A stretch of DNA of 64,000 nt, from assembly GCA_934149075.1 (NCBI GenBank), contig CAKPDR010000009.1, positions 1,565 through 65,564 of the forward strand, in the 5' to 3' direction. The notes beneath the pieces were generated by a model that was not told the DNA's origin, did not search any database, and worked only from the letters and a program-made list of their open reading frames with translations. Numbering within the stretch: position 1 is the first letter of the stretch; the number at the start of each line of letters is the position of its first letter. This DNA is from an uncultured Clostridia bacterium (GTDB lineage Bacteria > Bacillota > Clostridia > TANB77 > CAG-508). Shown here piece after piece: positions 470-45,113 of the stretch. The position numbers and the translations under genes were made by a program.

Positions 470-525
470 AAGTGGTGTCCCCACTGGTAAATTTTTTTAC
501 CATTAATGAGTGTCCCTATTGGTAA
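470..525. repeat. two copies of the GGGACAC palindromic repeat (family 1)
   Basis: aagtggtgtccccactggtaa (470-490) and ttaccattaatgagtgtccctattggtaa (497-525). The same unit occurs at 7780-8053 and 17876-18013. The second copy supplies the last codons and the stop of uvrC. Confidence 0.7.
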
Positions 526-2660: not shown

Positions 2661-2834
2661 TAATTATTAAAATTGCTCAAGGGACGGAGCAATTTTATTT
2701 TGTTTTATACAATTTATAAAAAATTTTTAAATCCCCCAAAAAACACTTGTAACTTTTTACATTTTGCTATAATATATTAAAGTAAATTGAAATATACTAA
2801 ATTCATAGAAAGGAGTATTATCTTTAAATATATT

Positions 2835-2985
2835 CAAGCGCCAGAACACTTTGATCTTTGTGTTGACGAGGTCTAGAGTTATCGATTTTTCGGCGGATGC
2901 TCTAGTGGATTGCTTAATCCATAGTATTAAACAAAAATTAGCAGTAATGCTATAACAGACATTAATACATAAGCAGTATATTTCA
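2835..2985 (+). ncRNA. glmS: glmS ribozyme (GlcN6P-responsive self-cleaving riboswitch)
   Basis: Contains the conserved core AAGCGCCAGAAC...GACGAGG...TCGGCGGATGC directly upstream of the glmS start, in the canonical order. Boundaries are approximate. Confidence 0.85.
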
Positions 2986-3017: not shown

Positions 3018-4859
3018 ATGTGTGGAATTATTGGATATATAGGACATAAAAAAGCAAGTCCTATATTAATTAATGGTCTTTTAAGACTAGAATATAGAGG
3101 ATATGATTCAGCAGGAATTTCTACTGTTGAAAAAAATGGATTATCTATTATGAAAGACAAAGGAAGAGTTAAAAATCTATATAATTTAGATGGAATTGAT
3201 GATTTAACAGGAACTATTGGTATTGCTCATACAAGATGGGCAACACATGGAAAACCATCTAAAGAAAATTCTCATCCTCATTTAGATAATAGTAATAATT
3301 TTTCTGTTGTTCATAATGGAATTATTGAAAATTATAATGACCTAAGAAAATTTTTAATTGATAATGGCTATACTTTCCGTTCTCAAACAGATACAGAAGT
3401 TATACCAAATCTTATACATTATTATTATTCAAAAGATACAAAAAATGATGATTTAAAAGTTTTGCGTGCAGTTCAAAAAGCGTGTATGGATTTAAAAGGT
3501 AGTTTTGCTATTCAAGTGATTTCAAGCTTTATGCCTGATAATATGATTGTTATTAGAAAAGATAGCCCACTTGTTATTGGTAAGGGTGATGGAGAAAATT
3601 ATATTTCTTCTGATATTCCTGCAATCCTATCATTTACTAGAGATTTTTACCTTTTAAATGATTATGAATTTGCTGTTCTTTCTAGAGATACAGTTGATTT
3701 TTATGATATTAATTTAAATAAAATTGTTAAACCTATAAAAACTATTGATTGGAGTGCAAGTAGTGCTGATAAAAATGGTTATGAGGATTATATGTTAAAG
3801 GAAATTTATGAGCAACCTAACTCTGTTAGAGAAACAATAGGTTCTCGTCTACCTGAAAACGAACCTTGTAATTTTGATGATTTAAATTTTACTAAAGAAT
3901 TTTTATCAAGTATAAACAAAATGTATATTGTTGCATGTGGTACAGCAATGCACGCTGGACTTTCAGGTAAATCTGCAATTGAAAAACTTTGCAATATACC
4001 AGTTACTGTTGATATTGCATCTGAATTTAGATATAGAAACCCTATTATTGATAAAAATACTTTATGTATTTATATCTCTCAATCAGGAGAAACAGCGGAT
4101 ACTATTGCTGCATTGAAACTTGCAAAATCTAAAGGTGCTACAACTTTAGCTATTTCAAATGTTATTGGTAGTTCAATTACAAGAGAAGCTGATTATTGTA
4201 TTTATACTCATGCTGGTCCAGAAATTGCTGTTGCTTCAACTAAAGCATATACTGCTCAAGTTGTTTTACTTAATATTTTAGCTGTATACTTTGCAGAAAT
4301 TTTAGAAAGTACTTCAATTTTCGAATTAAAAGATATAAAGTCAGAAATTTCAGCTCTCCCTTCAAAAATTGAAATAGCACTAAAATCTGCTAATAGAATA
4401 GAAGATTTTGCAAAAAATATTTATCAAGAAAAAGATGTATTTTTCTTAGGTAGAGGTGTGGATTACAATACTGCTTTAGAAGGTTCTTTGAAATTAAAAG
4501 AAATTTCATATATTCATTCTGAAGCATATGCTGCTGGTGAATTAAAACATGGTCCAATTGCTTTAATTGAAAATGGTATTACTGTTATTAGTATTATAAC
4601 AGATAAAAACTTAGTTGAAAAAACTATTAGTAATATTCAAGAGGTTATTACCCGTGGTGCAAAAACTTTGGTTGTTACAAATCAAGAATTGCCAAGTAAT
4701 AATATCGATACAATTATTACTGTTCCTGATACTAATGTTTTACTATCACCTATCTTATCAATTGTTCCTTTACAATTACTTTCTTATTTTATTTCAAAAG
4801 AAAAAGGATTGGATGTTGATAAACCTAGAAATCTTGCAAAATCAGTTACAGTTGAATAA
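3018..4859 (+). CDS. glmS: glutamine--fructose-6-phosphate aminotransferase
   Basis: 613 aa with the MCGIIGY N-terminal nucleophile, two SIS domains, and the C-terminal KSVTVE. Confidence 0.97.
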   Translation: MCGIIGYIGHKKASPILINGLLRLEYRGYDSAGISTVEKNGLSIMKDKGRVKNLYNLDGIDDLTGTIGIAHTRWATHGKPSKENSHPHLDNSNNFSVVHNGIIENYNDLRKFLIDNGYTFRSQTDTEVIPNLIHYYYSKDTKNDDLKVLRAVQKACMDLKGSFAIQVISSFMPDNMIVIRKDSPLVIGKGDGENYISSDIPAILSFTRDFYLLNDYEFAVLSRDTVDFYDINLNKIVKPIKTIDWSASSADKNGYEDYMLKEIYEQPNSVRETIGSRLPENEPCNFDDLNFTKEFLSSINKMYIVACGTAMHAGLSGKSAIEKLCNIPVTVDIASEFRYRNPIIDKNTLCIYISQSGETADTIAALKLAKSKGATTLAISNVIGSSITREADYCIYTHAGPEIAVASTKAYTAQVVLLNILAVYFAEILESTSIFELKDIKSEISALPSKIEIALKSANRIEDFAKNIYQEKDVFFLGRGVDYNTALEGSLKLKEISYIHSEAYAAGELKHGPIALIENGITVISIITDKNLVEKTISNIQEVITRGAKTLVVTNQELPSNNIDTIITVPDTNVLLSPILSIVPLQLLSYFISKEKGLDVDKPRNLAKSVTVE

Positions 4860-5725: not shown

Positions 5726-7438
5726 TTATTCTTTATATGTTTTTTTATTTGCAAATTCTTTTAGTTTATTTTCAACTTCTTCCGCAGAAAATAAACCTAA
5801 AACTTCTTGTGCAAGCTCTTTACAATCATATTTCTCTAGTTCACTGATTCTTTTTCTAGCTTTTAATATACTATTTGAGTTCATAGAAAATTCATCTAAT
5901 CCAAGTCCAATTAATAATGGTATATATAGCTCGTCTCCAGCGGCTTCTCCACACATTCCACAGAATATTCCTGCATCATGTGCTCCATCTATTGCTAGTT
6001 TTATAAGTCTTATTACTGACGGATGAAATTTCGTATATAACTTTGATATCTTTTCATTTCCTCTTTCTGCTGCAACAGTATATTGAATCAAATCATTTGT
6101 TCCTATGCTAAAAAAGTCACATTCTTTTGCTAATCCATAAGCAATTAAAGCTGTTGATGGAATCTCTATCATTATACCAACTTTTATATGTTTTTTATAT
6201 GGTATATTTTTAGCGTCTAGTTCTTCTTTACATTCTTCTAATATCTTTTTAGCATCTCTTAATTCTTCAATTGAAGATATCATTGGGAACATTATTGATA
6301 GGTTTCCATAGGCACTTGCTCTTAATATTGCTTTTAATTGTATTTTGAATATTGCTATATTATCTAAGCATAAACGTATTGCTCTATATCCTAAAAATGG
6401 ATTTGCTTCTTTATCTAAATGTAAGTATTTTAATTCTTTATCTCCACCAACATCTAATGTTCTTATTATTACAGGCCTATCTTCCATTTTTTCTGCAACA
6501 GCTTTATATGCATTAAATTGTTCTTCTTCAGTTGGCATGTTTTCACTATCCATGTATAAAAATTCGCTTCTCAATAACCCTACACCTTCAGCTGTATTTT
6601 TTAAAGCTATGTCTGCATCAGCTGGTGTTCCAATATTAGCAACTAATTCAACTACATATCCATCAATTGTTTTTGTTACAGCATCTTTAAATTGTTCTAA
6701 TTCTTCTTTTTCTTTTATTAATTCATTTTTTATTTCTTCTAATTTTTCTTTTTCTTCTTTAGTTGGATTTAAATATATTTCACCTTTTTCACCATCTATT
6801 GCAACATAATCTCCTGTTCTAAGAATTTTTGTAGCTTCTTCTACTTTTGTTATAGCAGGAATTGCATGTGTTCTCGCCATTATAGATGTATGTGAATTTG
6901 TTCCTCCTAATTCTGTTATTATTCCAACTACATTTTCAAAATCCAATTTTGCAGTATCTGATGTTGTTAATTCTGTTGCAACAATTATTGTATCAGGATC
7001 TAATTTACTTATATTAACAGTTTCCTCATTAAATAATTTCGCAATTATTCTATTTTTGATATCTGCAATATCTCTTGCCCTTCCTGCCATATATTCATCA
7101 TCCATGTTTTCAAAAATTTGTATTACACTATTAAAGCCAATTTCTACTGCATATTCTGCACTATAATTTAAATTCGTTATTGCATTTTCAGTTTCTGTAG
7201 TTAGTGTTGGATCTTGCATTATCATTAAGTAAGCACTCATTATCTCTTTTTCTGTCCCACTTGATGAATTTACAATTTCTTCTGTTTCTTTTGTTACTTG
7301 CTCAAGTGCTTCTTTAAATCTTTTCATTTCTTTTTCAGAATCTTCTACTGTCTTTTTTTCAATTTGTCTTTCTTGATTTTTTAAAACAACTATTGTTCCA
7401 AATCCGATTCCTGTAGACACACCTTTTCCTCTTATCAT
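5726..7438 (-). CDS. ptsI: phosphoenolpyruvate--protein phosphotransferase (PTS enzyme I)
   Basis: 570 aa with the GGTNSHTSIMAR phospho-histidine motif and a PEP-utilising C-terminal TIM barrel (FFSIGTNDLIQY). Confidence 0.95.
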   Translation of the reverse strand: MIRGKGVSTGIGFGTIVVLKNQERQIEKKTVEDSEKEMKRFKEALEQVTKETEEIVNSSSGTEKEIMSAYLMIMQDPTLTTETENAITNLNYSAEYAVEIGFNSVIQIFENMDDEYMAGRARDIADIKNRIIAKLFNEETVNISKLDPDTIIVATELTTSDTAKLDFENVVGIITELGGTNSHTSIMARTHAIPAITKVEEATKILRTGDYVAIDGEKGEIYLNPTKEEKEKLEEIKNELIKEKEELEQFKDAVTKTIDGYVVELVANIGTPADADIALKNTAEGVGLLRSEFLYMDSENMPTEEEQFNAYKAVAEKMEDRPVIIRTLDVGGDKELKYLHLDKEANPFLGYRAIRLCLDNIAIFKIQLKAILRASAYGNLSIMFPMISSIEELRDAKKILEECKEELDAKNIPYKKHIKVGIMIEIPSTALIAYGLAKECDFFSIGTNDLIQYTVAAERGNEKISKLYTKFHPSVIRLIKLAIDGAHDAGIFCGMCGEAAGDELYIPLLIGLGLDEFSMNSNSILKARKRISELEKYDCKELAQEVLGLFSAEEVENKLKEFANKKTYKE

Positions 7439-7489: not shown

Positions 7490-7753
7490 CTATTCTCCTA
7501 AATTATTTTTAAAAGCTTTTAAAATTTCTTCCATAGCTTTATCTTCATCTTCTCCATCACATTCAATTTCAATTTCAGTATTTGTTTTTATTCCCAAAGA
7601 CATTATTCCTAAAATTGATTTTGCACTTACTGTTTTTCCATTTGCATTTATATTTATATTACAATTAAATGTACCTGCTAATTTTGCTAATTCTCCTGCT
7701 GGTCTTGCATGTAGACCTGTTTCATTTTTTAAAACTACTTTTTCTTTTTTCAT
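7490..7753 (-). CDS. ptsH: phosphocarrier protein HPr
   Basis: 87 aa from the ATG at 7753 (RBS GGAAG). Has His15 (GLHARPA) and Ser46 (KSILGIMSLG). The 27 extra N-terminal codons in the ORF track are a translation of the repeat. Confidence 0.9.
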   Translation of the reverse strand: MKKEKVVLKNETGLHARPAGELAKLAGTFNCNININANGKTVSAKSILGIMSLGIKTNTEIEIECDGEDEDKAMEEILKAFKNNLGE

Positions 7754-7779
7754 TTTTATAACTTCCTTTCTTACCAATG

Positions 7780-8053
7780 TTACCAGTAGGGACACCCATA
7801 AGTGGTCAAAATCTTTACCAATGGGGACACCCATAAGTGGTCAAAATCTTTACCAGTAGGGACACTCATTAATGGTAAAAGTTTATTATTTAATAATGTT
7901 TAAATAATAAATAATGAATATTAATATTAAATACTCTAACTTTTATTATACCTTTTACCATTAATGAGTGTCCCTACTGGTAAAGATTTTGACCACTTAT
8001 GGGTGTCCCTACTGGTAAAGATTTTAACCACTTATGGGTGTCCCTACTGGTAA
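7780..8053. repeat. composite inverted repeat of family-1 units: two 99-bp arms and a 76-bp AT-rich spacer
   Basis: The left arm (7780-7878) is three tandem units: TTACCAGTAGGGACACCCATAAGTGGTCAAAATCT twice, then TTACCAGTAGGGACACTCATTAATGGTAA. The right arm (7955-8053) is its reverse complement with 3 mismatches by my alignment. Confidence 0.9.
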
Positions 8054-8060
8054 CTCCAGA

Positions 8061-9977
8061 TTATTTTTTTTCATATTCTGGTAAATTATTTTTTAACATT
8101 GCCATAACAGCCATTGAAACTAATGATCCAATAATTATTGATACTAAATACCATATTGGATGTCCAACTGTTGCAATTACGAATATTCCTCCATGAGGTG
8201 CCATTAATGTACAATTAAATACCATTGACAATGCTCCTGTTACTGCTGATCCTGCAACAAATGCTGGTATTGTTCTTAATGGGTCTGCTGATGCAAATGG
8301 AATTGCACCTTCTGATATAAATGATAACCCCATTATATAATTTACATATGCTGCTTGTTTGTCTTTTTTTGCTATTTTCTTTGGGAAGAATGTTGCTAAT
8401 AATGCTATTGCTAATGGTGGTACCATTCCTCCTGCCATAACTGCTGCCATAATTTCATATTGCCCAGACGCTAACATTCCTGTTCCAAATGTATATGCTG
8501 CTTTGTTTACTGGTCCACCTAAATCTATTGCCATCATTCCTCCTAGAATTGCTCCTAGTAATACTTTATTTGCTGTACTCATTGATGATAAGTAATTATT
8601 TATTGCTGTGTTTATTGCTCCTACATATGGATTTATTAATAACATAAATGCACCCATTAACATTATTCCAAATACAGGATATAAAAGAATTGTTTTTATT
8701 CCTTCTATACTTTCTGGTAAATAACTACATATCTTCTTTAGTAATAATACTATATAACCACCAACAAAACCTGCTATTAATGCTCCTAAAAATCCTGAAC
8801 TAACAAGAACTACTGTGCTATCCGTTAATGATGCAAATGTTGTTCCCTGTACTGCTAATATTCCTCCAACAAACCCTACTGCTAATCCTGGTCTATCTGC
8901 AATACTCATTGCGATATATCCAGCTAAGATGTATAGCATTACATTAAATGCTGCTCCTCCTACTGTTTTAAAGAATGCAGCTAATGGTGTATTCATGCCA
9001 AAGTTTGAAGGATTTATTGAATAATCATCAAATAAGAATGCTAATGCTATTAATATTCCTCCACCTACAACAAATGGTAACATATGTGTTACACCATTCA
9101 TCAAGTGTTTATATACTTGTGTTCCAAATCCTTCTTTTTCATTATCATCTTCTTGATTACTCTTATTTGAAGAATGATATGTTTTTGCTTCTGGTGATAA
9201 TACATGTTCAATTAATTCTTGTGGTTTATTTATTCCATCTGCAACTTTTGCTTTTACTAGTTTTTTTCCGTCAAACCTTGATAAATCTACCTTTGTGTCT
9301 GCTGCAATTATTACAGCCTTTGCATTTTTTATTTCTTCTTTTGTGAATTTATTTTTCACTCCAGAAGATCCATGTGTTTCTACTTTTACTTTATGTCCTA
9401 ATTGTGCTCCCATTTTTTCTAGTGCTTCTGCTGCCATATACGTATGTGCAATTCCTGTTGGACACGATGTTATTGCTAATATTTCATATCCATCACTTTC
9501 TTGTTTTGTTTCTTTTAATTTCATTCTTTCGGCTCTATCTATGCACAACATAAATTCTGCTGGCGTTTCTGCATTTAGTAATTCTTTTCTAAATTCTGTA
9601 TCCATTAATAATGTTGATAGTCTACTTAACACGTCTAGGTGTACATTGTCTTTTGTATTCGGTGCTGCAATTAAAAATATTAATTTTGCAGGTTGTCCAT
9701 CTAAAGAATCAAAATTTACTCCATTTGGTATTACCATTGCTGATAATCCCGGTTTTGAAACTGCATTTGTTTTTCCATGTGGTATTGCGATTCCTTCTCC
9801 AATTCCAGTTGTTCCTTCTTCTTCTCTTTCCTTTACTACTCTTTTGTATTCTTCCTTGTTGATAATATTTCCATTGTTTGCCATTAAGTCAACCATTTGG
9901 TTAATTACTTCTTCTTTGCTATGTGCTACACCATTTAATTTGATGGCACTTGTACTTAACAAATCTGTAATTTTCAT
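8061..9977 (-). CDS. fruA: PTS fructose transporter subunit IIABC
   Basis: 638 aa with an EIIA-2 domain (GIAIPHGK), an EIIB-fructose domain (SCPTGIAHTYMAAE), and a polytopic EIIC domain. Confidence 0.93.
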   Translation of the reverse strand: MKITDLLSTSAIKLNGVAHSKEEVINQMVDLMANNGNIINKEEYKRVVKEREEEGTTGIGEGIAIPHGKTNAVSKPGLSAMVIPNGVNFDSLDGQPAKLIFLIAAPNTKDNVHLDVLSRLSTLLMDTEFRKELLNAETPAEFMLCIDRAERMKLKETKQESDGYEILAITSCPTGIAHTYMAAEALEKMGAQLGHKVKVETHGSSGVKNKFTKEEIKNAKAVIIAADTKVDLSRFDGKKLVKAKVADGINKPQELIEHVLSPEAKTYHSSNKSNQEDDNEKEGFGTQVYKHLMNGVTHMLPFVVGGGILIALAFLFDDYSINPSNFGMNTPLAAFFKTVGGAAFNVMLYILAGYIAMSIADRPGLAVGFVGGILAVQGTTFASLTDSTVVLVSSGFLGALIAGFVGGYIVLLLKKICSYLPESIEGIKTILLYPVFGIMLMGAFMLLINPYVGAINTAINNYLSSMSTANKVLLGAILGGMMAIDLGGPVNKAAYTFGTGMLASGQYEIMAAVMAGGMVPPLAIALLATFFPKKIAKKDKQAAYVNYIMGLSFISEGAIPFASADPLRTIPAFVAGSAVTGALSMVFNCTLMAPHGGIFVIATVGHPIWYLVSIIIGSLVSMAVMAMLKNNLPEYEKK

Positions 9978-10010: not shown

Positions 10011-10913
10011 TTATATTTCTTTTAATAGGTTAGCTACTTCTTCTGCTGTTGCTAAATTCATTGAAAATGAGCTTGCACTTCCTGTAGCTATTCCCATTTT
10101 AAAAGCTTGTTCAAAATCTCCACTTTTTTCATAGCCTGCTATAAATCCCGCTACCATGGAGTCTCCTGCACCAACTGTATTTAATACTTTTCCTTTGGGT
10201 GCTTTTGAATAAAATTCTTTTCCTTCTGTTGTTAATAATATAGCTCCTTCTCCTCCTAATGATATTAAAACATTTTGTGCTCCAATTAGCTGAAGTTTCT
10301 TTGCATGAACTATAATTTCTTCTTTTGTTTCTATTTTTTCTTTAAATGTTTCTTCTAATTCTTCTTTATTTGGCTTTATTAAAAATGGTTTATATTTTAA
10401 AACATTCATTAATAATTCTTTTGTAGCATCTACTACAAATGTTACATTATTTCTTTCTAATGTTTTACATATTATTTCATATATATCATTATTTATACAT
10501 CTTGGTATATTTCCTGCTAGTATTACCATATCTTCTTTTGTTATTTTTTCAATTTTTTCTAATAATTTATTGATGTCTTCTTCTGTTATTTCTGGTCCAT
10601 TTCCATTTAACGCTGTTTCTTCATTTGAACTAATTTTTACATTGATTCTCGTAATTCCTTTTTCTACTTTTATAAAGTCTGTTTTTATCCCTTTTTCTTC
10701 AATGTTTCTTTTTAATTCTTTTCCTGTAAATCCTGCTATAAATCCTAATGCTGTACTTTCTATTCCAAGATTTTTTAGAACTGTTGATACATTTAGTCCT
10801 TTTCCTCCTGGAAGTATTTTTTCAGTTTTTGTTCTATTTATTTTTCCAATTTTAAAATTTTCTACTTGTGATATGTAATCTAGAGCTGGATTAAATGTAA
10901 TTGTATATATCAT
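10011..10913 (-). CDS. fruK: 1-phosphofructokinase
   Basis: PfkB family (MIYTITFNPALDY..., GAGDSMVAGF). Start moved to the ATG at 10913, preceded by GAGGTGA. Confidence 0.9.
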   Translation of the reverse strand: MIYTITFNPALDYISQVENFKIGKINRTKTEKILPGGKGLNVSTVLKNLGIESTALGFIAGFTGKELKRNIEEKGIKTDFIKVEKGITRINVKISSNEETALNGNGPEITEEDINKLLEKIEKITKEDMVILAGNIPRCINNDIYEIICKTLERNNVTFVVDATKELLMNVLKYKPFLIKPNKEELEETFKEKIETKEEIIVHAKKLQLIGAQNVLISLGGEGAILLTTEGKEFYSKAPKGKVLNTVGAGDSMVAGFIAGYEKSGDFEQAFKMGIATGSASSFSMNLATAEEVANLLKEI

Positions 10914-11040
10914 TTTATTCACCTCAATTTTTATCATATTATCATAATTAATTTTAATTTACAATAGTATTTTTTATTTTTAAGCGAAAAAAAAACTATA
11001 ATTTTACATTTTTATTATAGTTCTTTTTTTATTCGATTTT

Positions 11041-12795: not shown

Positions 12796-12870
12796 TGGTT
12801 GGGCTGGCTAGATTCGAACTAGCGCATGCCAGAGTCAAAGTCTGGTGCCTTACCGCTTGGCTACAGCCCA
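12796..12870 (-). tRNA. tRNA-Gln (UUG)
   Basis: The reverse complement, TGGGCTGTAGCCAAGCGGTAAGGCACCAGACTTTGACTCTGG...TTCGAATCTAGCCAGCCCAACCA, folds as a cloverleaf with anticodon loop CTTTGAC. CCA is encoded. Confidence 0.9.
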
Positions 12871-12885
12871 ATATATAATATTTTA

Positions 12886-12963
12886 TGGGGTGGAAGATGG
12901 GACTCGAACCCACGGTCTCCAGTGCCACAAACTGGCGCGTTAACCAACTACGCTACATCCACC
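12886..12963 (-). tRNA. tRNA-His (GUG)
   Basis: The reverse complement, GGTGGATGTAGCGTAGTTGGTTAACGCGCCAGTTTGTGGCACTGG...GGTTCGAGTCCCATCTTCCACCCCA, has the extra 5' G typical of tRNA-His and anticodon GTG. Confidence 0.85.
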
Positions 12964-13063
12964 GTCATTGTAGCTCATTTGTGAGCACAGTTAATATTTT
13001 AATATGATTTTTCATATTTGTCAAGTTTTTTTCAATAATTTCTTAAAGTTTTGTTGCAGTTTA

Positions 13064-13459
13064 GTTACAATTCGCACTCCTTAAAAATATTATATATGTT
13101 GGGAACCTTCCTAGGTGATTATATATATTTGAGATTTTGTCCTGTTCATTACGTTCAAAAAGAAAATCTACCATAAAAAACTGAGCCTCTCTCACTCAGG
13201 TATAAAATGCATATATATATATGAGTTTAAACTTTTCGAATGTGATTGGAGCAATATTAGAATTTCTTATGTTGCGTATTGAGCCAAGAAAATGTTTCAA
13301 ATCATATACATATATGCATTTTTCCGTGAGCATTCCTCATTTTTTTATTTTAAATTTTCTATTTTTCACTCCAATCAAACGGACAAAATCTCAAATATAT
13401 ATAATCACCTAGGAAGGTTCCCAACATATATAATATTTTTAATGGCTGTGAATCGTAAC
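13064..13459. mobile_element. non-coding MITE-like element with about 80-bp terminal inverted repeats (family 3)
   Basis: The left arm (13064-13144) matches the reverse complement of 13381-13459. The shared core is ttaaaaatattatatatgttgggaaccttcctaggtgattatatatatttgagattttgtcc. Further nested palindromes lie inside. A mini copy is at 35742-35792. Confidence 0.7.
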
Positions 13460-13527
13460 TCTGTTTAATATTTTTACCAATTTCACAAAAAATAATACCT
13501 ATAAGACTAGGTACTATTTTTTGTATT

Positions 13528-17397: not shown

Positions 17398-17516
17398 AAT
17401 AAGAATGTAATATATTATTTTAAAGTTTAACAAGGTGTTTTAAATTTGTTTCAAACAAATTTAAAATAGCAAGACGTCCGCAGTTAAACGATAAAATAAT
17501 ATATTACATTCTTATT
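17398..17516 (-). terminator. long compound AT-rich hairpin, probably the terminator of the polC-DUF1294 unit
   Basis: Perfect 25-bp arms aataagaatgtaatatattatttta / taaaataatatattacattcttatt. Inner pairings are gtttaac/gttaaac and ttttaaatttgtt/aacaaatttaaaa. A T-run follows on the minus strand. Confidence 0.45.
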
Positions 17517-17559
17517 AAATTATAAATACACGAATTATATAAAGTACGCTTTTATCTTT

Positions 17560-17862: not shown

Positions 17863-17875
17863 TTTTCTTCCTTTC

Positions 17876-18013
17876 TTACCAGTAGGGACACTCATTTCTG
17901 GTAATTTTTTTTACCAATAGGGACACCCTTTATATAATTTCATTAATTTTTTTCGCATAAGAGTGTCCCCTGTGGTAACTTTTTTTACCATTAATGGGTG
18001 TCCCCAATGGTAA
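17876..18013. repeat. four family-1 repeat units (two forward, two reverse)
   Basis: ttaccagtagggacactcatttctggtaa (17876-17904), ttaccaatagggacaccc (17911-17928), cgcataagagtgtcccctgtggtaa (17954-17978), ttaccattaatgggtgtccccaatggtaa (17985-18013). The last unit ends 1 nt before the polC stop codon. Confidence 0.8.
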
Positions 18014-26531: not shown

Positions 26532-26629
26532 CGTGGCTCATTTTGTCACTACATATCATTCTATAATGTTTAAACATTCAAAAAGAGTAATGGATAGCTT
26601 ATTTATGCTATCCATTACTCTTTTAAAGG

Positions 26630-27205
26630 TTAATCAAAGTTAACTTCAGGTACTTTTTTCGCACTCTCATCAGCTTCAAAATACTGCATTGGATAATATC
26701 CACTCATTCCAGCAATAAAACTACTTGGGATACTCTGTACTTTGGTATTATAAGCCTTTACTTTCTCATTATAATACTGTCTTGCTACAGAAATTCTATT
26801 TTCAGTTCCAGCTAATTCATCCTGTAATGCAATGAATTGTTCACTTGCTTTAAGCTCCGGATAATTCTCCGAAATTGCAAGTAATCTTCCTAGTGCAGAG
26901 TCTAAAGCATTGTTTGCTTCACTGATACTTTCAATATTTCCACTTTCAATACTTCCTGAAAGTTTCGCTCTCGCATCAGCAATTTCGGTAAATACTTCTT
27001 TCTCATGAGTTGCATAGCCTTTAACCGTTGCTACAAGATTCGGAATAAGGTCGCTCCGTCTCTGAAGTGTTGTCTCAATTTGAGACTGCTGCATTTCGAC
27101 ATCTTCTTTCAAAGATACCAAACTGTTTTTGGTTCCAAAAAACCAAAATGCTACCAAAATTACTACTGCAATTACTCCAAATAATACGCTTCTTCCACTC
27201 TTCAT
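26630..27205 (-). CDS. lemA: LemA family protein
   Basis: 191 aa with an N-terminal TM helix and the motif QRRSDLIPNLVATVKGYATHEKEVF. Confidence 0.9.
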   Translation of the reverse strand: MKSGRSVLFGVIAVVILVAFWFFGTKNSLVSLKEDVEMQQSQIETTLQRRSDLIPNLVATVKGYATHEKEVFTEIADARAKLSGSIESGNIESISEANNALDSALGRLLAISENYPELKASEQFIALQDELAGTENRISVARQYYNEKVKAYNTKVQSIPSSFIAGMSGYYPMQYFEADESAKKVPEVNFD

Positions 27206-27258
27206 GTAAATTACCTCCTAAAGTTTTGATTTTTTGTTTTCAATTTACAATTTGATTG

Positions 27259-28020
27259 TTATCTTGAGGCACCACCACCTCCGGAAAAACCTCCGCCGAA
27301 TCCTCCACCGGAAAATCCTCCGCCCGAAAATCCTCCACTAGAAAATCCTCCTGATGAACTTCCTCCACCACAGATAACTCCAATAATAATTAATGCAATA
27401 AGAATTATAACAATAATTATCAGTGCCCATGATGGTAATTCCTCATCAGAATCAGCTTCTTCATCAACAGAAATCTTACTTTCCACACCCTGAATTGATA
27501 TTTCATATTCTTCAGCCAAAACATTTAAAACTGCTTTAACAGTCATTTCTGTTGCTTTAGTATACTCATTATTTTCACGGTAAGGGACAAAATATTTGTC
27601 AAGAATTCGACCACATTTTGAGTCATTTAAGGCTCCTTCTAGTCCTCTGCCAATTTCAAGTCTAACTTTTTTATCAGACCGAGAAAATAGCAGTAGTGCT
27701 CCGTTGTCTTTTCCCTTTTTGCCAATTCCTAAAGTATTAAATAGATTATTTGCATAATCTTCAATACTTCTATCAAGCAGACTTTTTACTGATACAACAG
27801 CAAACTCTGCTTCTGTCTTTTCTTCAAGTTCTACCAGCATTTTGTTGAGTTTCTTTTCTACATCATCATCAATAATGTTATCATCATCATAGATGTAGAC
27901 ATCTTTCTCAATTTTGGGAATTGGAATTTTCTCTACTGATGTGGTACATCCAGTAATCATACTCACAAGTATAATTACCACCATAAATAGTGCATAAGAA
28001 GTTATCCGTTTTTTTCTCAT
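27259..28020 (-). CDS. TPM-domain lipoprotein with a Gly-rich C-terminal tail
   Basis: Lipobox ITGC. TPM/YgcG-like domain (YIYDDDNIIDDD...FAVVSV...GKKGKDNGALLLFS). One TM helix. Tail GGFSSGGFSGGGFSGGGFGGGFSGGGGASR. Confidence 0.8.
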   Translation of the reverse strand: MRKKRITSYALFMVVIILVSMITGCTTSVEKIPIPKIEKDVYIYDDDNIIDDDVEKKLNKMLVELEEKTEAEFAVVSVKSLLDRSIEDYANNLFNTLGIGKKGKDNGALLLFSRSDKKVRLEIGRGLEGALNDSKCGRILDKYFVPYRENNEYTKATEMTVKAVLNVLAEEYEISIQGVESKISVDEEADSDEELPSWALIIIVIILIALIIIGVICGGGSSSGGFSSGGFSGGGFSGGGFGGGFSGGGGASR

Positions 28021-43733: not shown

Positions 43734-45113
43734 ATCGAGTAGGAGAAATACCATTAGTTGATATTTCGTCCTCTCACACCACCACAGCATGCCGTTCGGC
43801 ACTGGGCGGTTCAATAGAATTAATACTTTAACAGTATACACTAGAAAGACTTATATAACCTTGTCTTTCTAGTATTTTATTATTTAACACTTTATTGATT
43901 ATTTGATTATCAGAAAGTCTCCAATATCCTTTCCTTGTATTTGCACAAGTCCATGCCGTTTCATCTTTTATTCCTAGCCTTTTAAGGTTTTCATATCTTG
44001 CTTTTATTTTCTTCCATTGCTTCCAATAGCACATTCTTATTCTTCTACGTATCCATTTATCTAGATTTTGTGCTATTTTTCCCATATTGGCTATTTTAAA
44101 ATAATTTACCCACCCTACAATAACTTGTTTTAATTTATTATATCTACTTTCCATACTCATTGCGTTACTTCTTGATGTTATAATTCTTATTTTATCTTTA
44201 AATTTAGCTATTGATTTTGGGTGTACCCTTATTTCAATTTTATCTTTTTTTGGTAAAATGAAAAACCTAGATATTTTATTCGCCATGGCCTATCTACTTT
44301 GCTTTTATCTTTATTGACTTTCAATCTTAATTTTGTTTCGATAAATTTTGTAATATTTTCCATTACTCTTTCTGCTGATTTCTTTGACTTTGTAAATATC
44401 ACACAGTCGTCCGCATAGCGTACGAACTGTAAGCCACGTTTTTCTAGTTTTTTGTCTAACTCATTGAGCATTATGTTACTCAATATTGGTGAGATGTTTC
44501 CGTCCTTGTGGTGTTCCTTTTTCTGTCTTTTCAAGTAATTCATTAGTTACTGTTTTAGTATCGATTTCTTTAAATGGAGACACATCAAGAATACTAGGAA
44601 CTTTTGCAATACTTTCTGTTTCCAACTTATTATCTTGCAAATAGTCTTCTATATGAAGTTGTCTACCATTATTATATTCCTGATTACCTTTCATAAAAAA
44701 AAATCCTCCTATCGTTCAGTCCTTCGCAAATTGTATATATCCAATTTGTTATTATGACCTCTGCTGACTTCTGATACTTCATTCTAATATCACTATTAGC
44801 ATTTTCATATCTATTACAAGATATTTCCAAAATATCAGACCTCCCCAGATAAGAACAACAACCTTCCTCTCATATATCTGCCACATTTACTGTATGAGCT
44901 TTGGATAGTTATTCGGGCTTTGCTTTGTTCAGCAAGCTCGCCCAACTCAATTCAGCCTTGTATGTGATTTCTGTTCGTCAGACCGAGATTTTGCTATTGA
45001 CTTCTTTCAGATTCCACCTCACAATGGACACCCTTGTCATTCGCTAACAGTTCGCAACTATCAGGCACTGTATGGAACTTTCACCCACAAGTTGTTGCCC
45101 ATGCTGGGCATAC
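43734..45113 (-). mobile_element. group IIC intron, degenerate (internally deleted reverse transcriptase)
   Basis: The 5' end is GTATGCCCAGCATGGGCA..., followed by ...AAGGGTGTCC...GGAATCTGAAAGAAGTC...TCGGTCTGA...GGGGAGGTCTGA...AGAAGTCAGCAGAGGTCAT. Domain V is GAACCGCCCAGTGCCGAACGGCATGCTGTGGTGG. From memory this closely follows the Oceanobacillus-type IIC consensus. The 3' boundary is approximate. Confidence 0.8.
43828..44694 (-). pseudogene. group II intron reverse transcriptase/maturase remnants (three ORF fragments)
   Basis: ORFs 44476-44694, 44229-44543 and 43828-44286. RT5-7 (TPQG..ISPILSNIMLNELD...FVRYADDCVIF) and the X/maturase domain are present. RT1-4 are largely missing and the frame is broken twice. 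Confidence 0.8.

What the first reader, a model, noticed from the sequence alone, without database searches (positions are those of the whole stretch)
7780..8053. 274-bp near-perfect inverted repeat of tandem 35-bp units between fruA and ptsH
The 307-bp gap between the fruKA genes and ptsHI, all co-directional, is almost entirely occupied by two 99-bp arms. Each arm is three tandem family-1 units. The arms are reverse complements of each other (3 mismatches by my alignment) around a 76-bp spacer that is almost pure A+T. As RNA this would form a roughly 100-bp duplex. That is far larger than a terminator and would be an obvious RNase III substrate. As DNA it is a cruciform-prone site. It could insulate the sugar-specific fru operon from the general PTS genes, act as a processing site, or be a nested insertion of a mobile palindromic element. 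No FruR/DeoR regulator gene accompanies fruKA in this window.
Basis: seen in the sequence. Interest (0 to 1): 0.55.

Follow-up and report, generated by a model that had tools for sequence, protein, structure and literature searches.

The report
Strain-variable REP-type palindromic repeat element
The 274-bp inverted repeat between fruA and ptsH is real, but it is one strain-variable copy of a dispersed palindromic repeat family whose probable mobilising enzyme (a REP-associated tyrosine transposase) sits between the same repeats in sister genomes, so it looks like selfish DNA rather than a dedicated PTS regulator.

Summary
Two 103-nt arms (7779-7881 and 7952-8054, 3 mismatches) each hold three tandem 35-bp units. 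They flank a 70-nt spacer of 8.6% GC and fill the fruA-ptsH gap.

The structure is not locus-specific. The units form a dispersed intergenic family in this uncultured, spore-forming gut Clostridia lineage. The canonical module is a full unit, a 6-nt linker and a half unit, often in inverted pairs. Eight homologous long elements (multi-unit arms plus a conserved AT-rich core, 80-95% identical) lie at different loci, six of them in one sister MAG.

In sister taxa a Y1 transposase gene sits between inverted family modules, in conserved tatD-gene-udg synteny. Its best matches are NCBIfam REP-associated tyrosine transposase (below that model's cutoff) and E. coli TnpA-REP (4ER8). This is the REP/REPIN-RAYT signature.

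At fruA-ptsH the element is polymorphic. Eight of 10 conspecific contigs and a sister species carry an 89-nt allele without it. Other strains have perfect arms or a 2+1 unit version.

A regulatory role is neither shown nor needed. The RNA would still fold into a hairpin of -202 kcal/mol. One truncated contig shows the spacer inverted, which is unresolved.

Verdict: a new member of a known kind, of moderate interest.

The parts
7779..7881 (+). ptsH-proximal arm: three tandem REP-like units (7780-7814, 7815-7849, 7850-7881)
7882..7951 (.). AT-rich core (8.6% GC). It is 91-94% identical to the core of elements at other loci in sister MAGs (L077, L101) and more distantly related to the 'type 2' cores (L027, L083, L084, L097, L105).
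7952..8054 (-). fruA-proximal arm: three tandem units on the minus strand (7952-7983, 7984-8018, 8019-8053)
7945..7974 (-). Promoter-like match GGGACA-18 nt-TATAAT pointing toward ptsH. The first hexamer lies in the innermost unit and the second at the edge of the core. A consensus match only.
   Evidence: A GTATAWT at the same distance from the inner unit is seen in seven of the eight long elements read (L105 has CTCATATT instead). In four other copies it points against the flanking genes.
7770..7778 (-). Remnant of an older unit end (CATTGGTAA on the minus strand), shared with the element-free allele. It sits directly upstream of the ptsH ribosome-binding site.
8061..9977 (-). fruA (PTS fructose IIABC). 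Its last codon differs between the long allele (YEKK*) and the short allele (YEKN*).
7490..7753 (-). ptsH (HPr), the downstream gene
472..525 (-). Another family locus: a single module (full unit + half unit) that forms the 3' end of uvrC
17876..18013 (.). Another family locus: the inverted pair full-half / half-full between polC and a DUF1294 gene. It differs by at most two substitutions and a 1-nt indel across 10 conspecific contigs.

Best explanation
The 274-bp structure is a REPIN-like element. It consists of two inverted arrays of REP-like 35-bp units around a conserved AT-rich core. It belongs to a dispersed intergenic repeat family of an uncultured, spore-forming, roughly 28% GC gut Clostridia lineage.

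Shown:
- The family exists and has a canonical module: full unit TTACCAnnnGGGACACyCATtaaTGGTAA, a 6-nt A/T linker, then half unit TTACCAnnnGGGACACCCyT.
- Modules occur singly or as inverted pairs that fold into long hairpins.
- Eight homologous long elements lie at different loci.
- In sister taxa a RAYT-like Y1 transposase gene sits between inverted modules.
- The fruA-ptsH copy is present in some strains and absent from most others of the species and from a sister species.
- Arm content varies among strains: 3+3 with 3 mismatches, 3+3 perfect, and 2+1.

Inferred:
- The family is mobilised or maintained by the RAYT, acting on single-stranded hairpin DNA.
- The element arrived at fruA-ptsH recently, by insertion into or gene conversion of an older REP doublet already there.
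- The arms are kept near-identical by intra-element gene conversion, and unit number changes by slippage.
- In the fruKA-ptsHI transcript it forms a duplex of about 100 bp. That could be cut by RNase III or slow exonucleases, as a side effect rather than a selected function.
For: Family and module: (60 full and 39 half units; a full unit is followed by another unit at +35 nt in 40 of 60 cases).

Long elements with a homologous core at distinct loci. Six are on different contigs of MAG CAKPGU.

RAYT: L103:1683-2096 matches Pfam Y1_Tnp at 42.8 bits (gathering score 23). It matches NCBIfam REP-associated tyrosine transposase at 47.5 bits, below that model's equivalog cutoff of 80, against 19.8 bits for IS200. 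The HUH and YIHNNP motifs are invariant or nearly so. The best solved-structure match of the family profile is 4ER8, E. coli TnpA-REP, at E 0.002. The gene is flanked by inverted modules with tatD and udg outside in L103, L132 and L133.

Polymorphism: (8 short and 2 long among 10 PtsI-exact contigs). The flanks are 99.3-99.9% identical. Sister species CAKPLT carries a short-type arrangement without the 274-bp element.

Orthologous doublet versus long element: L051 and L027. Orthologous pairs that keep their units while the spacer is replaced: L039 and L032.

Folding. No Rfam family. No phage or plasmid relatives.

[quoted passage not shown] Group 1 RAYTs occur in Clostridia (PMC5581495).
Against: - The RAYT was found only in sister taxa and unplaced short contigs, not in the window or in a contig shown to belong to the window's species.
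- The NCBIfam RAYT score is below that model's equivalog cutoff, and the PDB match is weak (E 0.002).
- A single unit is only a weak hairpin (z -1.8 and -0.35), unlike classical REPs.
- The long allele is not a clean insertion. It replaces 89 nt of the short allele. No target-site rule could be derived, so ectopic recombination rather than transposition is equally possible.
- Units are at least as conserved as neighbouring coding DNA between orthologous loci. That could mean host-level function.
Confidence: 0.72

Rival explanations
1. The element is a selected RNA-level insulator or processing site. The roughly 100-bp duplex in the fruKA-ptsHI transcript is cut by RNase III or blocks exonucleases or ribosomes. 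This would uncouple expression of the sugar-specific genes from that of the general PTS genes.
For: The RNA hairpin is very stable: -201.9 kcal/mol, z -25.8. The four genes are co-directional, with no terminator-like site between fruA and ptsH. The hairpin starts 7 nt after the fruA stop and ends 12 nt before the ptsH ribosome-binding site. REPs and Correia elements are known to affect mRNA stability and processing (own knowledge). Even the short allele folds better than shuffled sequence (z -4).
Against: Eight of 10 conspecific contigs with the identical PtsI protein lack the element, as does a sister species. It is therefore dispensable. Homologous elements sit in unrelated contexts, including between convergent genes. 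No expression data exist.
Confidence: 0.15
2. The element is an invertible switch. The AT-rich core carries half of a promoter (GGGACA-18-TATAAT) and flips between the 103-bp arms, turning an element-borne ptsHI promoter on or off.
For: Contig L006 (MEGAHIT, k=141) runs from fruA through the arm into the core in the opposite orientation. It stops 40 nt in, about where a 141-mer loses its unique anchor, as expected if both orientations coexist in the sample. The promoter-like match is the best in the region. A GTATAWT at the same offset is seen in seven of the eight long copies. An unrelated 35-nt hairpin loop at about 17432-17517 is found in both orientations in full-length conspecific contigs, so loop flipping occurs in this species.
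Against: Only one truncated contig shows the flipped state. All eleven full-length loci, from nine distinct contigs, have the same orientation, including a 534-kb contig. Promoter-like matches in the region are no more frequent than in shuffles. In four other copies the motif points against the neighbouring genes. The Pfam annotations held for about 2-41 kb of the window show no recombinase; those for about 23-41 kb come from a conspecific contig that lacks about 5.7 kb of the window, and the last 22 kb was not annotated. Arms of 103 nt are far longer than typical inverton repeats.
Confidence: 0.07
3. The element is a conventional MITE, moved by a DDE transposase that recognises multi-site terminal inverted repeats, as at Tn7, Mu or Tn552 ends.
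For: It has terminal inverted arms built of repeated 21-35-bp motifs, a conserved internal core and multiple copies.
Against: No direct target-site duplication is seen at any of the eight copies. The flanks instead continue the palindrome as degenerate half units. No DDE transposase is associated with the units in the sequence held. Single modules and pairs with unrelated spacers of 22 nt to 1.5 kb are the commonest forms. The gene found between inverted units is a Y1 (HUH) transposase.
Confidence: 0.04
4. The structure is an assembly artefact, a fold-back chimera.
For: Several short-read contigs break inside the arms (L006, L007, L008, L116).
Against: The complete structure is present in eleven loci from nine distinct contigs, produced by different assemblers and samples. 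These include versions with imperfect arms, which are resolvable, and a 534-kb contig.
Confidence: 0.01

Closest known systems
REPINs and REP clusters with their RAYT (Pseudomonas fluorescens SBW25; PMC3116915, PMC3337134)
   Same: Short extragenic repeats are organised as inverted doublets that fold into long hairpins. Singlets and higher-order tandem arrays also occur. Clusters build up at sites that already hold repeats. A Y1 transposase gene with conserved synteny (tatD-gene-udg) is flanked by the repeats. Repeats persist at orthologous loci across species.
   Different: The host is a Gram-positive gut Clostridia lineage. The single unit is barely palindromic. The basic module is bipartite (full unit plus half unit). 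Each arm of the long form holds one to five full or half units (three in the window) and encloses a conserved AT-rich core. The RAYT-like gene carries a C-terminal winged-helix part in a +1 frame.
E. coli REP/BIME elements and TnpA-REP (PDB 4ER8)
   Same: TnpA-REP is the best solved-structure match of the transposase profile. Both are extragenic clusters of about 35-bp units inside operons and at gene 3' ends. GT[AG]G is present in 52% of units.
   Different: BIME units alternate in orientation, whereas here they are in direct tandem within an arm. The sequences are unrelated. Protein similarity is weak (E 0.002). No IHF or gyrase-type motifs were examined.
Correia elements of Neisseria (own knowledge)
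   Same: Both are intergenic inverted-repeat elements of about 100-300 bp, co-transcribed with neighbouring genes. Correia RNA hairpins are RNase III substrates and the elements can carry promoters.
   Different: Correia elements have simple 26-bp terminal repeats and a TA target duplication, and no RAYT. Here there is no target duplication and the arms are arrays of units.
Invertons (invertible promoters flanked by short inverted repeats; own knowledge)
   Same: An inverted repeat flanks a short segment with a promoter-like motif, and one contig hints at the flipped state.
   Different: The arms are 103 nt rather than about 10-40 nt. No recombinase appears in the annotated part of the window. 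The element is multi-copy and present or absent between strains.

Membership tests
REP/REPIN-RAYT system | Short (about 20-60 bp) repeat unit that is over-represented and confined to extragenic space | tested here: met
   Twelve units lie in three intergenic loci of the 64-kb window, and chance expectation is about 0. There are 131 exact-core units in 323 kb of related loci, although those loci were chosen because they contain units. Only the ends of uvrC, the DUF1294 gene and fruA are touched.
REP/REPIN-RAYT system | Each unit is itself an imperfect palindrome | tested here: inconclusive
   The full unit pairs TTACCA with TGGTAA plus a few more bases. As DNA this gives -3.4 kcal/mol, z -1.84. 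The outer unit type gives z -0.35.
REP/REPIN-RAYT system | Units occur as inverted doublets separated by a spacer and fold into a hairpin (the REPIN) | tested here: met
   A 64-nt doublet folds at -28.2 kcal/mol, z -11.3. The 138-nt pair at 17876-18013 gives z -6.2. The 274-bp element gives z about -26. Many such pairs are listed.
REP/REPIN-RAYT system | A RAYT (Y1/HUH transposase) gene flanked by the same repeats in inverted orientation, low copy, conserved synteny | tested here: met
   Met in sister taxa (L103, L132, L133): tatD - full/half - Y1_Tnp gene - half/full - udg. The NCBIfam RAYT model outscores the IS200 model but is below its own cutoff. The best PDB match is 4ER8. Not located in the window's own genome. 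Copy number per genome was not measured.
REP/REPIN-RAYT system | Conserved GT[AG]G tetranucleotide at the 5' side of the hairpin (E. coli-type REPs) | tested here: inconclusive
   GTAG occurs in 51 and GTGG in 17 of 131 units, at a fixed position inside the unit. Other tetranucleotides are common.
REP/REPIN-RAYT system | RAYT binds and cleaves the repeat; the element moves | not testable with these tools
   Only indirect evidence exists: presence/absence polymorphism within the species and multiple 80-95% identical copies.
MITE (DDE-transposase dependent) | Direct target-site duplication flanking terminal inverted repeats | tested here: not met
   Flanks of all eight long copies were read. None has a direct duplication. 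The flanks continue the palindrome as degenerate half units.
Intrinsic terminator | G+C-rich hairpin followed by a run of U | tested here: not met
   The sequence after the hairpin is CAUUGGUAAGAAAGGAAG. The scan finds no terminator-like site on the minus strand.
Inverton (phase-variable invertible promoter) | Both orientations present in a population; recombinase; promoter inside | tested here: inconclusive
   One truncated contig shows the flipped core. The Pfam annotations held for about 2-41 kb of the window show no recombinase; those for about 23-41 kb come from a conspecific contig lacking about 5.7 kb of the window, and the last 22 kb was not annotated. The promoter is a consensus match only. 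Reads were not available.
CRISPR array | Direct repeats separated by unique spacers of similar length | tested here: not met
   Units abut head to tail with a 35-bp period and no spacers.
Known RNA family (Rfam 15) | Match at or above a family's gathering score | tested here: not met
   No gathering-score match falls in the region. Only sub-threshold matches to plant miRNA precursor hairpins appear, which are generic long hairpins.

The most novel reading that the evidence does not exclude
A REPIN has been co-opted as a genetic switch. The AT-rich core, which supplies a TATAAT 18 nt from the GGGACA of the innermost unit, flips between the two 103-bp arms, as contig L006 hints. This would give phase-variable, fru-independent transcription of ptsHI, the genes for the two general PTS proteins, in a gut commensal.
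Probability: 0.06. Interest if true: 0.75.

Novelty: new member of a known kind. Interest (0 to 1): 0.4.

Why it matters
REP/REPIN-RAYT systems have been studied almost only in Proteobacteria. This is a well-defined family in an uncultured, spore-forming gut Clostridia lineage. It has an unusual bipartite module, multi-unit arms and a RAYT-like gene whose DNA-binding tail is reached through a conserved +1 frame change.

In practice the family explains why assemblies of this lineage break at such sites. It also explains why annotated gene ends run into repeats, and why the fruA-ptsH spacer differs between strains that are otherwise more than 99% identical.

For PTS biology the finding lowers expectations. 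The big hairpin is an optional passenger in the fruKA-ptsHI gene cluster, not a conserved control element. Long-allele and short-allele strains are nonetheless a natural experiment on what a 100-bp RNA duplex does inside an operon.

Tried and rejected
- **Rfam.** Scans at gathering and permissive thresholds found no family, only generic hairpin matches.
- **Phages and plasmids.** BLAST of the element found nothing. A viral-contig pattern scan gave 5 isolated chance hits.
- **Literature.** A full-text search for the core sequence returned only unrelated primer hits. A MITE/Clostridium search found nothing relevant.
- **Metagenome scan.** The scan for the fruA-side junction gave one contig, which ends inside the arm. 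It did not help with orientation.
- **tblastn with remembered sequences.** Queries with IS200 TnpA and E. coli RAYT written from memory found nothing significant. The true RAYT locus scored E 6.6. It was found later by reading the ORFs between inverted modules.
- **phmmer against PDB.** The RAYT-like protein alone found nothing. The family profile was needed.
- **Cargo between modules.** The 380-aa ORF between inverted modules in L026 is a zinc-ribbon membrane protein, not a transposase.
- **Element-borne promoter as a general function.** This was weakened because four other copies point against their neighbours.
- **Failed look-ups.** Two protein look-ups returned nothing: the DUF1294 short start and window 51627-52613.
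- **Other roles for the units.** I considered and rejected, from memory of their consensus sequences and without a test: cre, LexA, parS, dif and attC sites, uptake sequences, and plasmid-type iterons.

Full report
**1. The observation**

The repeat finder reports two 103-nt arms, 7779-7881 and 7952-8054, 97% complementary, with 70 nt between them. Tandem Repeats Finder reports 2.9 copies of a 35-bp period in each arm. The three mismatches are at 7807, 7821 and 7823 against their partners, and the spacer 7882-7951 is 8.6% GC. The unit is far beyond chance: it occurs 4 times at 3 mismatches or fewer, against 0 in shuffles.

All four genes are on the minus strand. NCBIfam identifies them as 1-phosphofructokinase (10011-10937), fructose PTS IIABC (8061-9977), HPr (7490-7753) and enzyme I (5726-7438), followed by sigG. 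The fruA-ptsH gap is 307 bp. As RNA in the sense of the operon the region folds at -201.9 kcal/mol (z -25.8). As single-stranded DNA it folds at -122 kcal/mol (z -25.6).

**2. It is a family, not a locus-specific structure**

The core TTACCA-NNN-GGGACAC occurs 12 times in the window, at three intergenic loci:
- 472-525, at the 3' end of uvrC
- 7780-8053, the finding
- 17876-18013, between polC and a DUF1294 gene

It gave scattered single chance hits in unrelated taxa and dozens of hits in two MAGs of 'uncultured Clostridia bacterium' from Hadza gut metagenomes, CAKPGU and CAKPLT. Their DNA is 91-95% identical to the window where orthologous. The window itself is contig CAYCAJ010000018 of MAG GCA_964313955.1.

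From 99 units in these loci the canonical module is clear. It is a full unit TTACCAnnnGGGACACyCATtaaTGGTAA, a 6-nt A/T linker, then a half unit TTACCAnnnGGGACACCCyT. A full unit is followed by another unit at +35 nt in 40 of 60 cases.

Modules occur singly or as inverted pairs: full-half, then X, then half-full. X ranges from 22 nt to about 1.5 kb and can contain small genes. The elements typically fill tight spacers between a stop codon and the next ribosome-binding site. All eight full-half / half-full pairs abut a Shine-Dalgarno sequence and start codon. This is what is expected of insertions tolerated only in non-coding DNA of a compact genome.

Single units are only weak hairpins (z -1.8 and -0.35), whereas doublets are strong ones (z -11.3).

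**3. The long form recurs**

The arm-core-arm arrangement of the finding is found at seven other loci:
- L077 in CAKPLT
- L027, L083, L084, L097, L101 and L105, on six different contigs of CAKPGU

Arms hold one to five full or half units. The AT-rich core is homologous in all of them. Type 1 comprises the window, L077 and L101, at 91-94% identity. Type 2 comprises the others. Whole elements are 80-95% identical pairwise. None has a direct target-site duplication. The flanks instead continue the palindrome as degenerate half units. The element has no relatives among phages, plasmids or viral contigs and no Rfam family.

**4. The associated transposase**

Reading the ORFs between inverted modules turned up a 137-aa ORF in L103 (CAKPGU contig 6, 1683-2096). 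It matches Pfam Y1_Tnp at 42.8 bits (gathering score 23). Its best NCBIfam match is 'REP-associated tyrosine transposase' at 47.5 bits, which is below that model's equivalog cutoff of 80 but well above the 19.8 bits for IS200.

The gene is bracketed by full-half (1459, 1494) and half-full (2468, 2503) modules. Homologues at 72-89% identity exist in gut metagenomes. In L132 and L133 the same arrangement holds: tatD - full/half - gene - half/full - udg.

In an alignment of 18 homologues the HUH motif (N-H-x-H-x-L) and the catalytic Tyr are invariant, and the rest of the Y-I-H-N-N-P motif is nearly so. The profile's best solved-structure match is 4ER8, E. coli TnpA-REP, at E 0.002, ahead of the ISDra2 and IS200-type transposases.

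A RAYT gene flanked by its own repeats, in conserved synteny, is the defining signature of REP/REPIN-RAYT systems (PMC3116915). Group 1 RAYTs are reported from Clostridia (PMC5581495). The RAYT was not located in the window's own genome. It lies outside the window, and its contigs are short, presumably because assemblies break at the flanking repeats.

**5. Population data at fruA-ptsH**

Contigs that carry exactly the window's FruA, HPr or PtsI proteins were fetched from many samples. Their flanks are 99.3-99.9% identical to the window. Four states exist:
- (a) 3+3 units with the window's three arm mismatches: window/L001, L125
- (b) 3+3 units with perfectly complementary arms: L002, L004, L005, L013
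- (c) 2+1 units, 105 bp shorter: L003/L012
- (d) an 89-nt spacer without the element, holding three other, more degenerate units, two of which form a small inverted doublet: L010, L011 and 8 of 10 PtsI-exact contigs

Sister species CAKPLT has a spacer of the state (d) type. That makes the element-free allele the likely ancestral state.

The long allele is not a simple insertion. It replaces the 89 nt, starting inside the last codon of fruA (YEKK* against YEKN*). It leaves only the last 9 nt of an old unit before the ptsH ribosome-binding site. Either insertion into an existing REP doublet or ectopic gene conversion would produce this. [quoted passage not shown]

Two other comparisons show turnover at fixed sites. 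L051 (CAKPLT, a 63-nt doublet) is orthologous to L027 (CAKPGU, a 290-nt long element). L039 and L032 are orthologous pairs that keep their locus-specific units while the spacer between them is entirely different. The polC-DUF1294 pair, by contrast, differs by at most two substitutions and a 1-nt indel in 10 conspecific contigs. Several short-read contigs end inside the arms (L006, L007, L008, L116), as expected for a 103-nt inverted repeat.

**6. How it most likely works**

Shown: family membership, architecture, the RAYT association in sister taxa, and presence/absence and unit-number polymorphism.

Inferred:
- The Y1 enzyme acts on hairpins formed by inverted modules in single-stranded DNA to copy or maintain the family.
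- The fruA-ptsH copy is a recent arrival.
- The perfect arms in some strains reflect recency or intra-element gene conversion.
- The 35-bp steps reflect slippage.

At the RNA level the element places a duplex of about 100 bp in the fruKA-ptsHI transcript. It starts 7 nt after the fruA stop and ends 12 nt before the ptsH ribosome-binding site. No U-run follows it, so it is not an intrinsic terminator. RNase III cleavage or effects on decay and translation are plausible by analogy with REP and Correia elements (own knowledge). Because most conspecific contigs lack the element, such effects are best seen as consequences rather than purpose.

**7. The inversion lead**

In contig L006 (MEGAHIT, k=141) the sequence runs from fruA through a perfect arm into the core in the opposite orientation. 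It stops 40 nt into the core. That is within about 3 nt of where a 141-mer loses its last unique flank base. A graph branch would appear there if both orientations coexisted in the sample.

A promoter-like GGGACA-18-TATAAT spans the inner unit and the core edge and points at ptsH. A GTATAWT at the same offset is seen in seven of the eight long copies; L105 has CTCATATT instead. An unrelated 35-nt hairpin loop at about 17432-17517 occurs in both orientations in full-length conspecific contigs, so small loop inversions do happen in this species.

Against the idea:
- Only one truncated contig shows the flipped state.
- All eleven full-length loci, from nine distinct contigs, agree in orientation.
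- Promoter-like matches are not enriched over shuffles.
- In four other copies the motif points against the neighbouring genes.
- The Pfam annotations held for about 2-41 kb of the window show no recombinase. Those for about 23-41 kb come from a conspecific contig that lacks about 5.7 kb of the window, and the last 22 kb was not annotated.

I keep this as a low-probability but testable reading.

**8. Comparison and verdict**

The closest known systems are the REPIN/RAYT populations of Pseudomonas and the REP/BIME-TnpA-REP system of E. coli. The element meets most of the defining features:
- met: extragenic enrichment
- met: hairpin-forming inverted doublets
- met in sister taxa: a RAYT flanked by the repeats
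- weak: palindromy of the single unit
- untested: catalysis and mobility

It fails the tests for a DDE-type MITE (no target duplication), an intrinsic terminator, a CRISPR array and any Rfam family.

It differs from classical REPs in four ways: the bipartite module, direct-tandem multi-unit arms, a conserved AT-rich core, and a RAYT-like gene with a +1-frame winged-helix tail.

I file it as a new member of a known kind, with interest 0.4. The structure is real and striking, but it is explained, and the regulatory reading is weakened by the population data.

Noticed in passing
window ~17432-17517 (minus strand, downstream of the DUF1294 gene); L106-L115 positions ~1879-1998: A perfect inverted repeat of about 26 nt (TAATAAGAATGTAATATATTATTTTA / its complement) encloses a loop of about 35 nt. 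The loop is found in both orientations in full-length contigs of the same species. Five contigs have the window's form. Five have the flipped form plus 34 extra nt. This is a genuine small hairpin-loop inversion polymorphism, unrelated to the unit family.
   Followed up: partly
L103:1683-2445; also L133-L137: The RAYT-like gene is split. ORF1 (137 aa, Y1 domain) ends 11 codons after the NPVKA motif. A +1 frame that encodes the rest of the protein, including a winged-helix domain, stays open through to its stop (about 125 codons) in the three loci whose contigs reach it, and to the contig end in the other three. The site ...GCT CGG A... is conserved, and CGG should be a rare codon at this GC content (own inference; codon usage was not measured). 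Relatives at about 50% identity are fused proteins of 231-240 aa. This suggests a programmed +1 ribosomal frameshift in a RAYT.
   Followed up: partly
window 503-525, 17863-17895, 8061-8066: Repeat units supply coding sequence at gene ends: the last 7 codons of uvrC, an annotated upstream ATG start of the DUF1294 gene (111 aa against a likely 100 aa), and an allele-specific last codon of fruA (K or N).
   Followed up: partly
window ~26600-32300: About 5.7 kb between the PBP gene and gatB is absent from a conspecific JGI contig (L138), where gatB and the PBP gene are 400 bp apart. This is a strain-variable island whose content was not annotated.
   Followed up: no
window 44719-45028 (minus strand): Group II intron domains D1-D4 (RF02001 at 150 bits, RF01998 at 62 bits). 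The intron-encoded protein and the host gene were not examined.
   Followed up: no
window 13063-13460: Internal repeats at about 78-83% identity lie near the tRNA genes at 12799-12962. Length differences of about 300 bp between conspecific contigs occur at 13128-13426.
   Followed up: no
window 2826-2978: A glmS ribozyme (85 bits) lies upstream of the 613-aa ORF at 3018-4859, whose product has GATase and SIS domains as expected for glmS. This is ordinary.
   Followed up: no
window 35264-35356 and 27281-27370: Other tandem repeats: a 41-bp period with 2.2 copies, and a 15/30-bp period (CCGGAAAATCCTCCA). Not examined.
   Followed up: no
L132:1606-2082: In one related strain the RAYT-like gene is truncated. 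The 158-aa product loses the YIHNNP motif and runs into the downstream repeat unit. This suggests decay of the transposase in some lineages.
   Followed up: partly
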